From positions 64,001-128,000 of the IMG/VR virus record IMGVR_UViG_3300014204_000113: a stretch of 64,000 nucleotides of DNA; one strand, written 5' to 3'. A program made the translations under genes and the position numbers. This DNA is from a virus (lineage: Duplodnaviria > Caudoviricetes). The notes beneath the pieces were generated by a model. It did not search any database. It was not told where the DNA came from and saw only the letters and a program-made list of their open reading frames with translations. This document shows positions 18,587-63,141 of this stretch, piece after piece; within the stretch, counting starts at the first letter, position 1; each line of letters starts with the position of its first letter.

Positions 18587-18706
18587 GGTTAGGTTTGGTT
18601 AGGTGGGGTCCGGTAAGGTGAGGTAAGGTGAGGTGTGATGAGGTTGGGTAAGGTGGGGTGAGGTAAGGTATGGTAAGGTACGGTATGGTAGGCTAGGGTG
18701 AGGTAT
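18587..18706 (+). ncRNA. GGT-NN pentamer array A2 (24 units), putative guide RNA
   Basis: starts at the base after the recA stop; NN = TA TT TA GG CC AA GA AA GA GT GA TG AA GG GA AA AT AA AC AT AG AG GA AT. Confidence 0.88.
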
Positions 18707-18711
18707 GGATT

Positions 18712-19122: not shown

Positions 19123-19653
19123 ATGGAGAAACAAATCATGGAGTTGACAAGAATTAAAGTAACAGTTCATGGAACAAAACCTCTTTTGGTGCATCGTTTT
19201 GCGGAAGAAGAAAGCGGCAAATCCAGGAAGAAAGCAACTGAGGATTCAAAAACGCAGGCAGAAAAGGCTCTTTACACAAATGCAGATGGACCTTATGCAC
19301 CATCTTCTTGGTTTGAAGGAGCTATGGTTAAAGCCGGTGTAAATTTCTCGTTGCGCGGCAAGAAAACTTACAAAGATTTGGTTAAAAGTGCGGTTGTGGT
19401 GACACCAGAAGAAATTCCTCTACGCAACGAATGGGAAGTAGATTCTCGTCCTGTTGTGATTAGCGGCAGGATTATGCGCCATCGTCCTAAATTTAAAGAA
19501 TGGTCGGCAGAATTCACAGTTGAAATTACAGACCCGCAATTACCAGCAAATGTCTTGCAAGACATTTTGAAAGATGCAGGACAATATTGTGGCGTGGGTG
19601 ACTACAGACCCAAGTTTGGTACTTTTGAAATTGTTGAATTTAAAGAAATTTAA
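19123..19653 (+). CDS. stand-alone RAMP/Cas7-like protein, paralog 1 (GGT arrays)
   Basis: VHGTKPLL, PSS, DSRPVV...RIMRHRPKF..W, C-terminal G-loop AG..CGVGDYRPKFGTF. Confidence 0.8.
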   Translation: MEKQIMELTRIKVTVHGTKPLLVHRFAEEESGKSRKKATEDSKTQAEKALYTNADGPYAPSSWFEGAMVKAGVNFSLRGKKTYKDLVKSAVVVTPEEIPLRNEWEVDSRPVVISGRIMRHRPKFKEWSAEFTVEITDPQLPANVLQDILKDAGQYCGVGDYRPKFGTFEIVEFKEI

Positions 19654-21690: not shown

Positions 21691-21996
21691 ATGGATAATG
21701 CCTCTTCCGGCTGTCGGAATCGCTCTCTTTGTAATCCCTTTTATCTTCGCGATTCAATTTGCTGTCCATCAAGATTATAAAATTTATGAAGGTCCGTGCT
21801 CATTTGTTGAATGGTCAACAGACAGTTTTAGATTGAAAATGAAGGTTAAATTTGACAATGGCAAAGAAGGAGAAACCTCTGACAAGAAAGCCTATCTACT
21901 TTTGGAAAAAGGTAAAACCATGATTGGTGAGTTGAAAATTTCTGGCGATGTTGATTTGAAAGAGCCTAAAGAAGAAAAGATTAAAGGATAATTAAT

Positions 21997-22437
21997 ATGC
22001 TACCAAGAAGCGGTTATCAACCAGAAGAAGAACTTGATTTGACGAATCCACCACAAGGTGATTCTGGTATTGATTGGCAAGAAATATTTTCCCAAACAGA
22101 AAAGAGGTCTCCTAAATTTTTTCAGATGTTGGTCAAGGCGGCTGACATCCACAATCGAAAAAACGCAAATTACGCAGGTTTGGGAAACGACCCGTTTGCC
22201 AATTTCAGAGAAGCGGAAAAATACGCTTGCCCTTCTTGCGGTGAAAAAATTCCAGCATGGCTCGGAGTAGCCATACGTATTTCGGACAAAACCAGTAGAA
22301 TCAACAACTTGCTTGGTGGTATTCCAGATATGGTTGGAGAAAGCCTTCTTGACACCTACACAGATTTAGGGGTTTATTCCAAAATTTTCTGCATTCTTTA
22401 CGAAGAATGGGAAGAGAAAAAGAAGAAAAAACTCTAA
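21997..22437 (+). CDS. DUF1599 / nucleotide-modification-associated domain protein
   Basis: RKNANYA...DPFANF...RISDK..RI...ESL.DT..DL.VY. Confidence 0.7.
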   Translation: MLPRSGYQPEEELDLTNPPQGDSGIDWQEIFSQTEKRSPKFFQMLVKAADIHNRKNANYAGLGNDPFANFREAEKYACPSCGEKIPAWLGVAIRISDKTSRINNLLGGIPDMVGESLLDTYTDLGVYSKIFCILYEEWEEKKKKKL

Positions 22438-22444
22438 AAATTTC

Positions 22445-22472
22445 TTGACAACCCGATTCTAAGGTTTATAAT
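22445..22472 (+). promoter_or_regulatory. sigma70-type promoter
   Basis: TTGACA-16-TATAAT upstream of a GGAGG RBS and gene 22504. Confidence 0.65.
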
Positions 22473-22503
22473 AGAGGCAAATCTTTGAAGGAGGAACCTG
22501 AAA

Positions 22504-22758
22504 ATGAAAACCCTATTCCTGATTTTGCTTCTATGTCTGCTTGCAAGTCCCGCATGGCCCAGAGACCACAACAATTATGTAATCAGAGACAAGAATTATA
22601 CTGTCAAAAATTATGTCAAAGATGGAAAAATTTATGATAAGAATTACCGTCTTGAAGGTTACATAAGTCCTAATGGCACTATCAGAGATAGAAATTATAA
22701 AACTGAAGGTTATCTTGACAGGAATAGAAGTGGCGGTCGCAAAGGGCGAAACAAATGA
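22504..22758 (+). CDS. secreted protein with three IxD(K/R)NY...Y repeats
   Basis: signal peptide MKTLFLILLLCLLASPAWP; repeats IRDKNY, IYDKNY, IRDRNY. Confidence 0.7.
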   Translation: MKTLFLILLLCLLASPAWPRDHNNYVIRDKNYTVKNYVKDGKIYDKNYRLEGYISPNGTIRDRNYKTEGYLDRNRSGGRKGRNK

Positions 22759-22928
22759 GAATTTCTGCTTACATTGTCATAATCGGTTTTGTCCTTGTAC
22801 TGGGTGGATGGATTTGGTTGGTGAATGATGTAGAATCCAAAAAACCAAGAGGTTTGAGTCCAAATCAGCAAGTAATGCTTGATAATGAAATATCAATCAA
22901 GAAAAAGATTTATGGTGATAGGAGATAA
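22755..22928 (+). CDS. small membrane protein (57 aa, below the ORF-track cutoff)
   Basis: ATGA overlap with the previous stop; N-terminal hydrophobic stretch. Confidence 0.55.
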   Translation: MRISAYIVIIGFVLVLGGWIWLVNDVESKKPRGLSPNQQVMLDNEISIKKKIYGDRR

Positions 22929-22929
22929 A

Positions 22930-22947
22930 TTATGATTAATCTTTACA
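22930..22947 (+). repeat. 18-bp direct repeat, left copy
   Basis: TTATGATTAATCTTTACA, identical at 24678-24695. Confidence 0.8.
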
Positions 22948-22983
22948 TTACCAAATGCCATTAGAAGAGAATAAAAAGTTTAC

Positions 22984-23058
22984 AGCATGGTTAGGCGAGT
23001 CCGGGCGATGCTAGGTAGGGCATGGCCAGGCGGGTCTAGGTGTGGCAGGTTGTGGCGA
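22984..23058 (+). ncRNA. GGC-NN pentamer array B1 (15 units)
   Basis: NN = AT TA GA CG GA TA AG AT CA GG TA GT AG GT GA; triplet mostly GGC/GGT with variants. Confidence 0.85.
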
Positions 23059-23106
23059 GGATTTAAAAAACGAAAAATCTAACACAAATAAAAGGAGGAA
23101 CAACAA

Positions 23107-23661
23107 ATGAACTTGGTACTGTGTAAATACAAAATTACTGGCTTATTTCCACTTTTAACCCACAGTCCTGCTGGAATGAGGCAAGCGGCCAATGCGCCAA
23201 AAGTCAAGAAGATTCCATCGCCAGAAGATGAAGCACAAGCTGGTTTGTATATTGATAATGATGGAAATTATTGCATCCCGTCTATTGCTTTTCGTTCAGC
23301 TTTATTGAATGGATTGAAAGGGAAAAAGATTGGCAAGGTGGGTGCAATTTCAGTGTTTCAAGCTGCGGTTTTTAACGTGGACGAATTGAGTCCATTAGTT
23401 GACCCTGAAACTGGGCGAGCATTAAGGGAATATACGATCGACACTCGTAGAGCTATCGTGCAAAGACAAGGAATTTTAAGAAACCGTCCAAGATTTGAAA
23501 AATGGGGATGTAATGTTTTTCTTCAAATCGACTTGGAAATAACCACACCTGAGCAAGTAGAAGAAGCATTGAATACGGCTGGTCAAATCATTGGCGTGGG
23601 TGATTTCCGTATTGAAAAGAGAGGAATGTTCGGTAAGTTTCAAGCCGAATTGGTTGAATAA
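23107..23661 (+). CDS. stand-alone RAMP/Cas7-like protein, paralog 2 (GGC arrays)
   Basis: ITGLFPLL, IPS, DTRRAIV...ILRNRPRF..W, AG..IGVGDFR....GMFGKF. Confidence 0.8.
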   Translation: MNLVLCKYKITGLFPLLTHSPAGMRQAANAPKVKKIPSPEDEAQAGLYIDNDGNYCIPSIAFRSALLNGLKGKKIGKVGAISVFQAAVFNVDELSPLVDPETGRALREYTIDTRRAIVQRQGILRNRPRFEKWGCNVFLQIDLEITTPEQVEEALNTAGQIIGVGDFRIEKRGMFGKFQAELVE

Positions 23662-23679
23662 AAGATTTTAAAGATTTGT

Positions 23680-23744
23680 GGCAAGGCGAGGCTGGGCTAG
23701 GCGGGGCTAGGCGGGGCTAGGCGGGGCTAGGTATGTCAAGGCGA
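23680..23744 (+). ncRNA. GGC-NN pentamer array B2 (13 units)
   Basis: NN = AA GA TG TA GG TA GG TA GG TA AT AA GA; internal (GGCGGGGCTA)x3. Confidence 0.8.
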
Positions 23745-23789
23745 GGTTTGAAAAAGAAATTAAGAACAAGAAATATAATGATTTTTCGC

Positions 23790-23839
23790 GGCGGGGTGGG
23801 GCGATGCCCGGCCCGGCATGGTAAGGCAAGTTAAGGCGA
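23790..23839 (+). ncRNA. GGC-NN pentamer array B3 (10 units)
   Basis: NN = GG GG GA CC CC AT AA AA AA GA. Confidence 0.8.
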
Positions 23840-23870
23840 GGGTTTTCAAACAAAACAAAGGAGAATAAAT

Positions 23871-24548
23871 ATGCTAATCAAAGCAGCAGAATTGATTGAG
23901 GATTTCAGTTTATATCCACGTTCCCAAGTGGACACAACACATGTAAGAAATATTGCAGAAGCAATGATGGCAGGAGAAAAATTTCCGTCTATCATCATTG
24001 ATGAACAAAATAGGATTATTGATGGCTTCCATCGGAAAAGAGCTACATTGAGGGTTTTTGGAGATGAGGCTGATATTGAAGTAGAAGTTCGACAATATGT
24101 TAACGATAAAGAAAGATTTCTTGATGCTTTGAGATATAATTCAAGACACGGTAAGGGAATAACTGGAGTTGAACAGACAGGAGCTATTTTGAAGGCTCAA
24201 GGTTTCAAGATTGACCCTAAATTTATCGCTTCTGCTTTGGGAATCAGCCAAGAAAGAGTCAAAGAAATCGTGCAATGTAAAGTCGGGAACATTCGCCAAG
24301 GTACGACTGCTCATGGAGACCCAGTTCCTCTAAAACGCTCTATGCAGCATTTTGCTGGGAAAGAAATGACTGTTGAGCAAGTTAAGGTGAATGATATGGC
24401 TCCCGGCACGCCACAATCTCTTCTTATCAATCAACTTATCGGATTTATTGAAAGCGGTAGTTTACAACTGGAAAATGAAAAGATTGTTAATGGACTCATC
24501 CATTTGAAGGAACTTTTAAATGGATTGGTTTTGGAAAAAGCGGTTTGA
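23871..24548 (+). CDS. ParB/Srx N-terminal domain protein inside the GGC module
   Basis: YPR, FPSIII, IIDGFHRKRA, N..HG, followed by a possible HTH (IASALGIS). Confidence 0.75.
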   Translation: MLIKAAELIEDFSLYPRSQVDTTHVRNIAEAMMAGEKFPSIIIDEQNRIIDGFHRKRATLRVFGDEADIEVEVRQYVNDKERFLDALRYNSRHGKGITGVEQTGAILKAQGFKIDPKFIASALGISQERVKEIVQCKVGNIRQGTTAHGDPVPLKRSMQHFAGKEMTVEQVKVNDMAPGTPQSLLINQLIGFIESGSLQLENEKIVNGLIHLKELLNGLVLEKAV

Positions 24549-24563
24549 AATAATTAAAGATTT

Positions 24564-24623
24564 GGCTCGGCTTGGTTGGGCGCGGCTAGGCTATGCGCGG
24601 CTTTGCGTGGCAGGGCAAGGCGT
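24564..24623 (+). ncRNA. GGC-NN pentamer array B4 (12 units)
   Basis: NN = TC TT TG GC TA TA GC TT GT AG AA GT. Confidence 0.8.
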
Positions 24624-24677
24624 GGATTTATCATCACAAAGAACAAATTTGAATTAAGTGAAACAGGAGGAGGTAAT

Positions 24678-24695
24678 TTATGATTAATCTTTACA
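24678..24695 (+). repeat. 18-bp direct repeat, right copy
   Basis: TTATGATTAATCTTTACA. Confidence 0.8.
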
Positions 24696-24723
24696 CGAGG
24701 TTGGCCTATGTTAGACGACCCGA

Positions 24724-25230
24724 GTGAGATGGACACTAAAGCTGACGGCCTTCTTATGGCTGATTTTAACAATAACCCTTTACCCGATGGCAACCTCCAG
24801 CCAACCTTTAAAAGAAACGACTATGTTGCCAACTCGGAAGTATCAAAAGCAGGAACCTTCAATTATTGTGATTAAGGCTTTGATTTGCGCTTCTGCAATT
24901 AAACATAAAGTTAAGCCAGAGGAATTAATGGCATTAGCTCACATTGAATCTCGCAAAGGTAAAAAAGAATTTCGTGTGGGATTAACTGGTAGATACTATT
25001 TGCCGATGGGTATATACAAAGGGTGTAAAACCGAAGATGACAAATCAACTTTAAGTGGCAATATTGAAATTGGAGCAAAAACATTGTCTAGACTTATCCA
25101 CAGAAGAGGAAGTCTAAAAAAGGCGCTTCAAAAATACAATGCCAGTTTCAATTCCAGTTATTGGAACGAAGTAAGAAGAGCATCCAAGAAATATAAACAT
25201 GAACTTAAACATGGATTTTTAACCCAATAA
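24724..25230 (+). CDS. lytic transglycosylase (SLT)-like protein with N-terminal signal/anchor
   Basis: ALAHIES catalytic motif, NI.IGA..L, AL.KYN. Confidence 0.65.
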   Translation: MRWTLKLTAFLWLILTITLYPMATSSQPLKETTMLPTRKYQKQEPSIIVIKALICASAIKHKVKPEELMALAHIESRKGKKEFRVGLTGRYYLPMGIYKGCKTEDDKSTLSGNIEIGAKTLSRLIHRRGSLKKALQKYNASFNSSYWNEVRRASKKYKHELKHGFLTQ

Positions 25231-25244
25231 AGGAGGAATAAGAA

Positions 25245-25559
25245 ATGAAGAAAATGGTTGAAGGTCTTTTGGTGGAAACTTTTCCCAACGAACAAATTAG
25301 GGCTTGGTGTACAAGAAGTCGTCTATGTGGTCAGGGATCGGATGGTAATTGTTTTGAATTTGACGACCCAGACAAAAGAAATTTATCTAAAAATACTAAA
25401 TCTTTAATAAAAGAACTTTGTTTTATCAATGGAATCAAAAAAGCGAGTTGTTGGCCTTATGAAATAAGAATTGAAAAGGCTAAAACCTATACTTGGGAAG
25501 AACTTGAACCAATCATCTTATATCTGATGGTTAAATATGAGGTTTATGCTGAGAGGTAG
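25245..25559 (+). CDS. NifU/Nfu N-terminal-like protein
   Basis: ETFPN...LIKEL..INGI......I.IEK....WEELEP.I. Confidence 0.55.
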   Translation: MKKMVEGLLVETFPNEQIRAWCTRSRLCGQGSDGNCFEFDDPDKRNLSKNTKSLIKELCFINGIKKASCWPYEIRIEKAKTYTWEELEPIILYLMVKYEVYAER

Positions 25560-25565
25560 ATAAAA

Positions 25566-25652
25566 ATCGGTGTGGCGGAATGGTAAAGGCAATAGATTGC
25601 TAATCTATCTGGTGTCAAAGCCGCGAAGGTTCGAATCCTTCACTTACCACCA
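25566..25652 (+). tRNA. degenerate tRNA-Ser(GCT)-like (possible pseudo-tRNA)
   Basis: ATAGA-TTGCTAA-TCTAT anticodon arm, long variable arm, GAAGG-TTCGAAT-CCTTC, CCA; acceptor stem pairs poorly. Confidence 0.6.
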
Positions 25653-25663
25653 TTTTAAAATGT

Positions 25664-25739
25664 GGACTCGTAATTCAGTTGGTAGAAGCCTCAACTCATA
25701 ATTGAGTAGTCTCCCGTTCGAGCCGGGACGAGTCCACCA
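25664..25739 (+). tRNA. tRNA with CAT anticodon (elongator Met or Ile2)
   Basis: GGACTCG/CGAGTCC acceptor, CTCAA-CTCATAA-TTGAG, TCCCG-TTCGAGC-CGGGA, ACCA. Confidence 0.88.
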
Positions 25740-62410: not shown

Positions 62411-62438
62411 TAATATTTGGTAATATCCAACTGGATAT

Positions 62439-62528
62439 TGTGTTGTAATGTTCTGTGTTGTGTGGCGCTGTAGTGTAATGTTAAGTCCTGTAGTGTGGCG
62501 TAGTGTGTTGTTATGTGTTCTATTCTAA
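62439..62528 (+). ncRNA. TGT-NN pentamer array C1 (18 units)
   Basis: NN = GT AA TC GT GT GC AG AA TA CC AG GG AG GT TA GT AT AA; flanked by hairpins AATATCCA/TGGATATT and GGATTC/GAATCC. Confidence 0.82.
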
Positions 62529-62574
62529 GGGGATTCTGTATTGAATCCAAAATAAATTTAAGGAGAATTAAATA

Positions 62575-63141
62575 ATGAAAATTAAAGTTACAATTCAAGG
62601 AACAGTTCCAATTTTATTTAATCGTTTTGCAGAAGAGAATGAAGTTAAAGTTGCTTCTGGAATTAATCCAGTTCAAGGAGGACAAAGAGGAACGCCTAGA
62701 GAACAAGCAGAAAAGAAACTATATCAAGACGTGGATGGGAATTTGTTTCTTCCAAGTCCTATGTTATTTTCTTGTTTAGTAGATGCTGGTAAATTCCATA
62801 AAGTGGGAAGAAATAAAGTTACGACTCAGAAGACTTCTTTAGTTCCTGCCGGTATATCTGTTGAAGAATTAATCATTCCGTTTAATACTAAAGATTGGGA
62901 AATTGATTCTAGAAGCGTTGTGATACCATCTACTGGTGGTAGAATCATGTGTCACAGACCCCGGCTTGATGAGTGGCAATTAACTTTCACTTTGGATGTT
63001 GATACAACAATGTTTGATCCTAAGTTTGTTAGGACTCTTATGGATGATGCAGGCAAGAAATGTGGCTTGGGTGATTATAGACCTAATCGTAAAGGGCCAT
63101 TTGGTAAATTTGTTGTGATTAATTGGGAAGAAGAAAAATAA
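62575..63141 (+). CDS. stand-alone RAMP/Cas7-like protein, paralog 3 (TGT array)
   Basis: IQGTVPIL, LPS, DSRSVVI...RIMCHRPRL..W, AG..CGLGDYRP..KGPFGKF. Confidence 0.8.
   Translation: MKIKVTIQGTVPILFNRFAEENEVKVASGINPVQGGQRGTPREQAEKKLYQDVDGNLFLPSPMLFSCLVDAGKFHKVGRNKVTTQKTSLVPAGISVEELIIPFNTKDWEIDSRSVVIPSTGGRIMCHRPRLDEWQLTFTLDVDTTMFDPKFVRTLMDDAGKKCGLGDYRPNRKGPFGKFVVINWEEEK

What the first reader, a model, noticed from the sequence alone, without database searches (positions are those of the whole stretch)
22984..24623. GGC module: four arrays, RAMP paralog 2 and a ParB/Srx-domain partner
Seen: array - RAMP - array - array - ParB-like - array, GC-rich against the AT-rich background. The arrays end GGCGA/GGCGT-GG(A/G/T)TT, and B2 and B4 share the leader TTAAAGATTT. 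Inference: this module uses a ParB-like (CTP-clamp or nuclease) accessory instead of DUF559, suggesting swappable effectors, for example silencing by spreading versus cutting.
Basis: partly seen in the sequence, partly recalled or inferred. Interest (0 to 1): 0.85.

Follow-up and report, generated by a model that had tools for sequence, protein, structure and literature searches.

The report
Phage VIPR cassette with ParB-like helper
This stretch is a mobile cassette of the recently described VIPR system, a CRISPR-like RNA-guided DNA silencer that phages use against rival phages, here with four guide-RNA genes and a ParB/KorB-like DNA-binding helper, so it is a new member of a known kind rather than a new kind of system.

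Summary
Four G-rich intergenic tracts keep a strict 5-nt GGC-NN register. They flank a 184-aa RAMP protein and a 225-aa ParB-like protein.

The system was published in 2026 preprints as VIPR: Vipr protein, vrRNA guides of GGY/NN pentamers, and an accessory 'vap' gene. A profile of the 184-aa family hits the solved SUSP1 Vipr structure (E 3e-19). The protein folds as a Cas7/Csm3-type RAMP and keeps the residues that hold the two guanines.

The partner folds like KorB, Noc and ParB (Z 13.3 and 10.5).

- The 1,748-bp cassette is absent from sister phages and is flanked by a 16-nt direct repeat.
- Its nearest relatives lie in phages of 52-60% GC, against 34% here.
- Guide A1 probably spells rival alleles of the gene next door.
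- The phage carries three Vipr paralogs, with GGT, GGC and TGT guide sets.

No targets were found for A2-A4, and the helper's mechanism is untested. This scan has already seen VIPR loci with a ParB-like helper on other DNA (e1-5358369, e1-5325826).

The parts
22445..22472 (+). Sigma-70-type promoter-like site (TTGACA-16-TATAAT, 12 of 12). It is a candidate start of a transcript that reads through the beta-flower gene into the cassette.
   Evidence: No terminator-like site was found in 22400-25300. Read-through is inferred.
22504..22758 (+). Small secreted beta-flower-like protein gene. It is the phage's own, mismatched copy of the probable target of guide A1.
   Evidence: PF21785, E 1.6e-6, below the cut-off. 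A1 matches 18 of 30 NN positions at 22632 in codon register.
22932..22947 (+). Left copy of the 16-nt direct repeat ATGATTAATCTTTACA. It is the start of the downstream gene as found in sister phages.
22948..24695 (+). The 1,748-bp VIPR cassette, absent from sister phages. Because of the repeat its placement is ambiguous and can equally be written 22932-24679.
   Evidence: Contigs of runs X2 and X3 join 22928 to 24674 and 22919 to 24668. Sister loci L091-L093 are colinear without it. Cassette GC is 41.7% against 34% for the genome.
22989..23063 (+). vrRNA gene A1. It has 15 pentamers, of which 4 are degenerate (GTCCG, TGCTA, GTCTA, GTTGT). The last two units, GGCGA-GGATT, are the shared 3' end.
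23107..23661 (+). vipr2, a 184-aa Vipr protein (single-RRM RAMP).
   Evidence: Profile A2 against PDB 36pp_D 'SUSP1 Vipr protein', E 3e-19. AF2 pLDDT 91.8. Foldseek top hits are Csm3/Cas7, probability 1.0. phrog_4652. Contact residues H19, R127, D166, F167 and R168 are kept.
23668..23677 (+). Leader TTAAAGATTT before A2. Its GATTT resembles the GGATT(T) 3' ends of the arrays, so it is a possible processing or start signal.
   Evidence: The function is inferred.
23680..23749 (+). vrRNA gene A2. It has 14 pentamers, including GGCTA-GGCGG repeated 3.5 times.
23790..23844 (+). vrRNA gene A3. It has 11 pentamers, of which 2 are degenerate.
23871..24548 (+). vap, a 225-aa ParB/KorB/Noc-like protein. 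It has a ParB/Srx N-domain with invariant G52-x-H54-R55, N90, H93 and G94, then an HTH, then a helical C-terminal part.
   Evidence: phrog_1033, E 1.7e-12. AF2 pLDDT 93.9. Foldseek hits Noc, ParB and KorB at probability 1.0. VIA-align gives KorB Z 13.3 and ParB/Noc N-domain Z 10.5 at rmsd 1.8 A.
24554..24563 (+). Leader TTAAAGATTT before A4.
24564..24628 (+). vrRNA gene A4. It has 13 pentamers, of which 2 are degenerate (TGCGC, TGCGT).
24680..24695 (+). Right copy of the 16-nt direct repeat. Together with a ribosome-binding site carried at the cassette's right end, it keeps the downstream reading frame expressed.

Best explanation
The locus is a VIPR (Viral Interference Programmable Repeat) cassette.

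From the preprints: Vipr protomers bind a vrRNA one per pentamer. They bury each GGY and present the two variable bases. The filament reads double-stranded DNA two bases in three, skipping one, and represses the bound gene of a rival mobile element.

Shown here by computation:
- vipr2 is a Vipr homolog that keeps the guanine-contact residues.
- A1-A4 obey the vrRNA grammar: 11-15 GGC-NN units with a shared short 3' end.
- No guide matches the phage's own genome at 80% or more.
- The 225-aa partner has a ParB/KorB-like fold and is steadily linked to this Vipr clade.
- The whole unit is a 1.75-kb insertion missing from sister phages.

Inferred:
- The arrays are cut out of a read-through transcript.
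- A1 is aimed at rival alleles of the beta-flower gene next door.
- The ParB-like Vap is brought to, or loaded at, the Vipr-bound site. There it strengthens or extends silencing as a nucleotide-dependent DNA clamp of the KorB type. I put this about 40% likely among the roles open to the Vap.
For: Identity as Vipr: profile hit to the solved SUSP1 Vipr, E 3e-19 over 182 positions, and a RAMP fold. The equivalents of SUSP1 H17, R138, D177, W178 and R179 are H19, R127, D166, F167 and R168. R127 and R168 are invariant in the family; D166 is at least 90% conserved.

Guide grammar: periodicity beyond all shuffles, and 11-15 units against the published 9-16. GGC stays fixed while NN differs between arrays and between orthologous cassettes.

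Conserved order of array, vipr, array, ParB-like gene, array in genomes of 49-59% GC and in an Acidobacteria MAG beside an integrase. The pair occurs in 44 of 64 IMG/VR loci.

Vap fold: KorB Z 13.3 over 166 residues; ParB/Noc N-domain Z 10.5 at rmsd 1.8 A.

No self-target: the best own-genome NN match is 64-75%, as the preprint reports for its systems.

Cassette absent in sister phages.

A1 against the sister beta-flower allele in L091: 21 of 30 matches, 18 of 20 in units 1-10, in codon register at the homologous site. The own copy scores 18 of 30. Guides with shuffled unit order reach 21 in 11 of 500 trials.

In SUSP1, Vap1 is needed for protection in natural infection (10.64898/2026.10.15.759431).
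Against: - There is no RNA evidence. No RNA run holds the locus, so expression and processing of the arrays are not shown.
- A1 and A3 carry degenerate units: 4 of 15 and 2 of 11.
- No target reaching the preprint's 80% criterion was found for any of the four guides.
- The A1 match is modest (70%, p about 0.02) and was found after a lead.
- The arrays lack the structured pseudoknot tail of the characterised type II vrRNAs.
- The Vap does not reach Pfam's ParB_N threshold. It also lacks the acidic residue of ParB's ENLQR box, so CTP hydrolysis or clamp behaviour is conjecture.
Confidence: 0.88

Rival explanations
1. This is the same VIPR cassette, but the ParB-like Vap is a nuclease or nickase. 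Vipr2 and a guide mark the rival allele near the insertion site, the Vap cuts there, and repair from the cassette-bearing genome copies the cassette. That would make it an RNA-guided homing or killing module.
For: - The cassette is a clean presence/absence polymorphism with a duplicated target-gene start at its right end.
- A1's probable target lies about 300 bp from the insertion point.
- The flank at 22772-22865 is dense in differences from the cassette-free form.
- Established knowledge: some ParB/Srx-fold proteins cut DNA.
- The preprint assigns nuclease vaps to some VIPR types.
Against: - The closest structures are CTP-dependent DNA clamps and repressors (KorB, Noc, ParB), not nucleases.
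- No nuclease motif was identified.
- In runs X2 and X3 the cassette-free form has the higher depth (about 35-52 against 4-5), so there is no sign of a sweep. Contig depth is a weak measure.
- None of the guides matches the immediate flanks of the cassette-free form.
Confidence: 0.2
2. The cassette is a recent, decaying import. It arrived by horizontal transfer from a higher-GC phage, and its guides are aimed at the donors' rivals, so it is of little or no use in this phage.
For: - The nearest relatives (76-78% Vipr identity) lie in phages of 52-60% GC, in other gene contexts and with either gene order.
- Cassette GC is 41.7% against 34% for the genome.
- A1, A3 and A4 have degenerate units.
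- No targets were found for A2-A4.
Against: - Both genes are intact, and all key residues are kept.
- The cassette is near-identical in landfill and groundwater samples of three studies.
- A1 appears adapted to the local neighbouring gene.
Confidence: 0.1
3. The ParB-like protein regulates the cassette itself or phage DNA handling, for example as an autorepressor or in partition. It would not be an effector partner of Vipr.
For: - ParB-like relatives occur without a Vipr gene in 20 of 64 fully flanked loci.
- KorB is a transcriptional repressor.
Against: - The pair is steadily adjacent on the same strand across genomes of 34-73% GC.
- The cassette holds no ParA-type gene and no palindromic parS-like site.
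- In SUSP1 the unrelated Vap1 is required for VIPR function.
Confidence: 0.07
4. The GGC tracts act as DNA, as centromere- or iteron-like repeats bound by the ParB-like protein, and not as RNA guides.
For: Plasmid centromeres are often arrays of short direct repeats, and a ParB-like gene is adjacent.
Against: - All arrays in all relatives show strict strand asymmetry, G-rich on the coding strand.
- The triplet is fixed while the dinucleotide is hypervariable.
- The same grammar occurs with DUF559 or with no partner elsewhere in this genome.
- The adjacent protein is a homolog of a protein solved in complex with exactly such RNA.
Confidence: 0.03

Closest known systems
VIPR systems, type II exemplars: Escherichia phage SUSP1 and the Pseudomonas fulva prophage (bioRxiv 10.64898/2026.04.26.720920, 10.64898/2026.04.26.720927, 10.64898/2026.10.15.759431; PDB 36pp)
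   Same: - A single-RRM RAMP protein of about 20 kDa, homologous to SUSP1 Vipr (E 3e-19), with the G1 and G2 contact residues kept.
- Intergenic vrRNA genes of 11-15 GGY/NN pentamers flanking vipr.
- One adjacent accessory gene.
- Phage-borne.
- No self-targeting.
   Different: - The accessory gene is a 225-aa ParB/KorB-like protein. It is unrelated to the 163-aa gene beside vipr in Pseudomonas phage LESphi2, which by position and size is a Vap1-type partner (no similarity).
- The arrays end in a short shared GGCG(A/T)-GGNTT(T), followed by unrelated A-rich sequence. There is no conserved pseudoknot tail.
- Y is C in about 80% of units.
- I could not tell which of the seven published types this is, because the figures and data tables were not held. 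'ParB' does not occur in the main text of the three preprints.
KorB of plasmid RK2, and the ParB and Noc CTP-dependent DNA clamps (PDB 8qa9, 7bnr, 7ng0)
   Same: - ParB/Srx N-terminal domain followed by an HTH DNA-binding domain (Z 13.3 over 166 residues for KorB; Z 10.5 at rmsd 1.8 A for the N-domain).
- The GxxR phosphate-binding motif is present, as G52-F-H-R55.
   Different: - Pfam ParB_N is not reached.
- The motif is GxHR, as in sulfiredoxin (GCHR), rather than GERR.
- No ENLQR box; only N90 is kept.
- No ParA or KorA partner and no parS or OB site was identified.
- The protein is encoded inside an RNA-guided cassette.
Class 1 CRISPR-Cas backbone proteins (Csm3/Cas7)
   Same: RAMP fold with a glycine-rich loop and a thumb (Foldseek probability 1.0, E about 1e-5). 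The protein binds a guide RNA as a helical filament.
   Different: - No CRISPR repeat-spacer array and no cas1, cas2 or other cas genes.
- A 5-nt rather than 6-nt period.
- A noncontiguous guide code.
- Only 11-18% sequence identity.
The GGT module of the same phage (window 18587-19653: array, DUF559, array, vipr1)
   Same: A paralogous Vipr (30% identity), the same array grammar, and a position as an insertion behind a conserved gene.
   Different: - The accessory is a DUF559/Vsr-like endonuclease.
- The units are GGT-NN.
- The 3' end is GGTA(T/A)-GG(G/A)TT.
- The pyrimidine-pocket residues differ: S, W and C against I, A and I.

Membership tests
VIPR system | A Vipr protein: a single-RRM RAMP homologous to the solved SUSP1 Vipr | tested here: met
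   hmmsearch of family profile A2 against PDB gives 36pp_D, E 3e-19, positions 3-184. AF2 model pLDDT 91.8. Foldseek top hits are Csm3/Cas7.
VIPR system | Residues that hold G1 and G2 of each GGY (SUSP1 H17, D177, R138, W178, R179) | tested here: met
   The equivalents are H19, D166, R127, F167 and R168. R127 and R168 are invariant; D166 is at least 90% conserved.
VIPR system | vrRNA genes: 9-16 tandem GGY/NN pentamers in the intergenic DNA flanking vipr, on the coding strand | tested here: met
   Four arrays of 15, 14, 11 and 13 units. None of 20,000 shuffles reaches the periodicity.
VIPR system | GGY conserved while NN is hypervariable among related loci | tested here: met
   Arrays in L003, L005, L095 and L098 and in 35 further loci keep GG plus C or T, with differing NN.
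VIPR system | An invariable 3' tail capping the repeat tract (a pseudoknot in type II) | tested here: inconclusive
   Only a short shared end, GGCG(A/T)-GGNTT(T), is present. The sequence downstream is not shared between the arrays. No RNA structure was tested.
VIPR system | An adjacent vipr-accessory (vap) gene | tested here: met
   The ParB-like gene lies 210 nt downstream on the same strand. It is linked to vipr in 44 of 64 fully flanked loci.
VIPR system | No self-target at 80% or more NN match | tested here: met
   Best own-genome matches are 64-75% over both strands of the 188-kb genome.
VIPR system | Natural targets under the 1-nt skip rule (at least 80% NN match, skip at the wobble base) | tested here: inconclusive
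   A1 against the sister beta-flower allele in L091 scores 21 of 30, or 20 of 26 without the last two units, in wobble register. A2-A4 have no match. Single exact 20-base hits in L089 and L090 look like chance.
VIPR system | vrRNAs are expressed, processed and bound by Vipr, and targets are repressed | not testable with these tools
   This needs sRNA-seq, a pull-down and a reporter assay.
ParB/Srx superfamily (ParB, Noc and KorB branch) | ParB/Srx N-terminal fold | tested here: met
   VIA-align gives Noc 7ng0 and ParB 7bnr Z 10.5, rmsd 1.8 A over 88-89 residues at 22-25% identity, and sulfiredoxin Z 7.7. Foldseek probability is 1.0.
ParB/Srx superfamily (ParB, Noc and KorB branch) | Sequence match to Pfam ParB_N (PF02195) at its threshold | tested here: not met
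   The window's protein has no hit. One of 33 family members matches, at E 0.0056. Weaker support comes from phrog_1033 at E 1.7e-12, profile hits to M. xanthus ParB at E 0.07, and PF02195 on record for four relatives.
ParB/Srx superfamily (ParB, Noc and KorB branch) | An HTH DNA-binding domain after the N-domain | tested here: met
   The alignment runs through residue 138 with Noc, and over residues 1-223 with KorB (Z 13.3, 166 aligned).
ParB/Srx superfamily (ParB, Noc and KorB branch) | CTP-binding and hydrolysis motifs (GERR box II, ENLQR box III) | tested here: inconclusive
   G52-F-H54-R55-x-R57-A58 aligns to GERRxRA. N90, H93 and G94 are invariant. The acidic residue before N90 is absent. 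No binding assay was possible.
ParABS partition system | A ParA ATPase partner and a parS centromere | tested here: not met
   The cassette holds only vipr2 and vap. The neighbours are a beta-flower protein, a 57-aa protein and an SLT-like protein.
CRISPR-Cas | A repeat-spacer array and cas1/cas2 or other cas genes | tested here: not met
   No CRISPR-type repeats were found. Rfam gives only a sub-threshold CRISPR-DR6 hit, outside the arrays on the minus strand (21.9 against 39 bits). There are no cas genes among the ORFs.

The most novel reading that the evidence does not exclude
The ParB/KorB-like Vap is a nucleotide-gated DNA clamp that has no parS of its own. It is loaded on DNA wherever a Vipr2-vrRNA filament has opened the duplex. 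It then slides or spreads, turning a 30-40-bp RNA-specified footprint into long-range silencing of a rival phage genome. This would be an RNA-programmed ParB.

Linked to this, the three Vipr paralogs of this phage would read three distinct fixed triplets (GGU, GGC, UGU). The phage would then run three guide sets with different effectors (nuclease, clamp, none) without cross-talk.
Probability: 0.2. Interest if true: 0.8.

Novelty: new member of a known kind. Interest (0 to 1): 0.45.

Why it matters
VIPR was described only in 2026. So far only the small Vap1 of type II has been tested, and how accessory proteins act is open.

This locus and its roughly 45 viral relatives show a whole Vipr clade wedded to a ParB/KorB-like protein. 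That gives a concrete, testable idea for effector action: clamp loading or spreading from an RNA-specified site, against cutting by the DUF559 partner in the same phage.

The phage is also a natural experiment:
- Sister genomes with and without the cassette coexist in landfill and groundwater samples.
- It carries three Vipr paralogs whose guide sets differ in the fixed triplet. One of these changes (G1 to U) travels with a change in the residue that contacts G1. This bears on how guide sets are kept apart.

None of this changes the category. The system itself is already known.

Tried and rejected
**Target searches**
- Exact 10- or 11-unit patterns of A1, A2 and A4 were run against IMG/VR, JGI metagenomes and GTDB genomes.
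- Only two single hits came back. L089 lies in a tail-fibre-like gene and extends by 5 of 10 positions outside the seed. L090 is a contig with an Rpb1-type RNA polymerase gene and DUF5757, and the skip base falls on codon position 2.
- Both are within the number expected by chance and are rejected.
- A3 has too few guide bases (18) for a specific scan.

**Other places scanned with A1-A4**
- 88 related VIPR loci, including rival vipr and vap genes: nothing above the shuffled-guide controls.
- The closest relatives L095-L099: nothing.
- A cassette-free junction rebuilt from the listed variants: nothing. The lead that a guide may decode to the adjacent ParB-like gene (e1-5325826) therefore does not hold here.

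**Sister phages and the host.** Searching IMG/VR with the RecA-like protein found no sister phages. The nearest cultured phages are only about 32-35% identical in RecA, so the host is unknown.

**Pocket residues and pyrimidine choice.** Across about 35 loci there is no clean link between the pyrimidine-pocket residues and the use of C or T. A residue-level explanation of GGC against GGT is therefore not supported.

**Complex prediction.** The Vipr2 plus Vap prediction returned 'no answer'. It counts neither for nor against binding.

**RNA evidence.** No RNA holder is listed among the public runs.

**Rfam.** No family, and no hammerhead ribozyme, was found in 22400-25300.

**Isolated phages.** The Vap has no tblastn match among 50,697 isolated-phage records.
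Full report
**Setting.** The window is the middle third of a complete 187,988-bp phage genome with direct terminal repeats. The genome has 34% GC. In the window, all long ORFs examined lie on the + strand. Public runs that hold the stretch come from landfill and groundwater metagenomes.

**Observation.** Four GC-rich, G-rich intergenic tracts stand out at 22988-23063, 23672-23750, 23775-23842 and 24559-24628.

Read in a 5-nt register they are 15, 14, 11 and 13 units of GG+C/T+NN. Between 9 of 11 and 13 of 14 units per array begin with GG in one phase. No shuffle in 20,000 per array reaches that count.

All four arrays end GGCG(A/T)-GG(A/G/T)TT. A2 and A4 share the leader TTAAAGATTT.

Two ORFs lie between them, 23107-23661 (184 aa) and 23871-24548 (225 aa).

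**What it is.**
- The 184-aa protein has no Pfam family and belongs to phrog_4652, of unknown function.
- A profile of 52 homologs hits one solved structure, 36pp 'SUSP1 Vipr protein', at E 3e-19 over nearly the full length.
- The AlphaFold model (pLDDT 91.8) matches Csm3/Cas7 backbone subunits of type III and VII CRISPR complexes (Foldseek probability 1.0).
- The literature search led to three 2026 preprints on VIPR systems.

In those preprints, a Vipr protein binds vrRNAs made of 9-16 GGY/NN pentamers plus a 3' tail. The NN bases read double-stranded DNA with one skipped base per unit. Binding represses transcription. Seven types are defined, with six accessory 'vap' families: DNA binders in types II, VI and VII, and nucleases or helicases in types III-V.

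The cryo-EM paper names the contacts. H17 and D177 hold G1. R138 and W178 hold G2. A pocket of E71, M72, C173, T175 and R179 holds the pyrimidine. In Vipr2 the G1 and G2 contacts are H19, D166, R127, F167 and R168. R127 and R168 are invariant in the family, and D166 is at least 90% conserved.

The locus therefore meets every sequence-level criterion of a VIPR system.

**The partner.**
- The 225-aa protein matches phrog_1033, 'ParB-like partition protein', at E 1.7e-12. It does not reach Pfam ParB_N.
- Its model (pLDDT 93.9) aligns best to KorB of RK2 (Z 13.3, 166 residues).
- It also aligns to the N-domains of Noc and CTP-bound ParB (Z 10.5, rmsd 1.8 A, 22-25% identity). Sulfiredoxin follows at Z about 7.
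- Invariant family columns include D51, G52, H54, R55, A58, N90, H93 and G94.
- G52-x-H54-R55-x-R57-A58 aligns to ParB's GERRxRA. The motif resembles sulfiredoxin's GCHR more than GERR.
- The cassette holds no ParA-type gene.
- The protein is unrelated to the 163-aa gene that follows vipr in Pseudomonas phage LESphi2.

**Linkage.**
- Loci fetched through Vipr homologs of 40-72% identity all show array, vipr, array, a 226-228-aa ParB-like gene, array. These genomes have 49-59% GC. One is an Acidobacteria MAG with the module beside an integrase.
- Searching IMG/VR with the ParB-like family gave 80 loci. Of the 64 with at least 1.5 kb on both sides, 44 have a Vipr gene on the same strand. Most of these carry GG-pentamer arrays.
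- Gene order can be vipr-vap or vap-vipr.
- The 20 loci without vipr often carry a different 250-290-aa neighbour. The helper was therefore probably recruited from a wider phage ParB-like family.

**A mobile cassette.**
- Contigs from two further samples join 22928 to 24674, with one T between, and 22919 to 24668. Their depth is higher than that of the cassette-bearing form.
- Sister-phage loci L091-L093 run straight from the 57-aa gene into ATGATTAATCTTTACA....
- In the window this 16-mer occurs twice, at 22932-22947 and 24680-24695. The insertion is therefore 1,748 bp and carries its own ribosome-binding site and gene start at its right end.
- One sister (L093) has the GGT/DUF559 module but not this one. 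Another (L092) has neither.
- The nearest relatives of the cassette (76-78% Vipr identity) lie in phages of 52-60% GC, in other gene contexts. The cassette has 41.7% GC in a 34% genome. Horizontal acquisition is likely.

**Targets.** No guide matches its own genome at 80% or more.

Earlier notes of this scan reported that GGT guides in this genome spell sister alleles of the neighbouring gene. I tested the same idea for A1.
- A1's NN code reads Y-[DE]-R-[DE]-Y-[SR]-[IM]-[HQ]-G-Y-V-[SR]-V-[DE].
- The upstream beta-flower gene reads YDKNYRLEGYISPN at 22632 in the same codon register, which is 18 of 30 matches.
- Sister alleles were found. The best, L091 (YDRDYRIRGYINQN), gives 21 of 30, with 18 of 20 in the first ten units. 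Guides with shuffled unit order reach 21 anywhere in the sister loci in 11 of 500 trials.
- This is suggestive, at about 70% in my estimate. It is below the preprint's 80% criterion, and no perfect allele was found.

A2-A4 remain without targets (see Tried and rejected).

**Three guide sets.**
- The genome holds three Vipr paralogs: 19123-19653, 23107-23661 and 62572-63138.
- Arrays next to the first, and the dispersed solo arrays, are 97% GGT. Those of this cassette are 82% GGC. The array before the third is mostly TGT-NN, and that paralog has N where the others have the G1-contacting H.
- Among IMG/VR Vipr loci, those without GG arrays mostly lack the G1-contacting Asp. These rows are related to one another, so this is a hint only.
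- The pyrimidine-pocket residues differ between Vipr1 (S, W, C) and Vipr2 (I, A, I). Across loci they do not track the use of C or T.

**Expression context.** A perfect sigma-70-type promoter lies at 22445-22472, and no terminator-like site lies between it and 25300. This fits processing of the guides from a read-through transcript, which is inferred. The shared GATTT, before A2 and A4 and at the array ends, could mark the processing sites; this too is inferred.

**Verdict.** The system is the published VIPR, so this is a new member of a known kind.

The added value is fourfold:
- the ParB/KorB-like helper clade;
- the cassette's presence/absence polymorphism;
- the probable neighbour-gene target of A1;
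- three co-resident guide sets with different fixed triplets.

Noticed in passing
window 62436-63138: A third Vipr paralog lies at 62572-63138. It is preceded by an array whose units are mostly TGT-NN instead of GGY-NN. The paralog has Asn where Vipr1 and Vipr2 have the His that contacts G1 in the solved structure.
   Followed up: partly
IMG/VR loci L009-L088: Vipr genes beside ParB-like genes but without detectable GG-pentamer arrays mostly lack the G1-contacting Asp: 13 of 18 have A, S, C, V or E there. Of 35 array-positive loci, 31 keep the Asp. This suggests that repeat triplet and contact residues co-vary. It is not corrected for relatedness.
   Followed up: partly
L043, L047, L063, L064, L066, L074, L081 (IMG/VR): In 20 of 64 fully flanked loci the ParB-like family member has no vipr. 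It is often followed, with overlap, by a 243-290-aa ORF. That ORF gives weak hits to the IS110-family transposase C-domain (PF02371, below the cut-off) or to DUF3102.
   Followed up: partly
window 21999-22422 and 21959: Sister-phage contigs replace 422 bases of the gene at 21997-22437 with 314 other bases and lack 17 bases at 21959. This is another variable spot just upstream of the cassette.
   Followed up: no
own genome 167556-167630 (outside the window), minus strand: This is the only GGT-NN array on the minus strand of the genome, with 15 units.
   Followed up: no
L096 2235-2516: A close relative of the cassette (78% Vipr identity) sits next to a short ORF with a Cas12f/TnpB-type TNB domain.
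   Followed up: no
window 18587-18711 against L092 391-420 and L093 22-51: The first ten units of the GGT array behind recA match the recA 3' region of sister phages at 18 of 20 and 17 of 20 NN positions. This agrees with the earlier notes on that array.
   Followed up: partly
window 25566-25739: tRNA-Ser(GCU) and tRNA-Met(CAU) genes lie about 0.9 kb downstream of the cassette.
   Followed up: no
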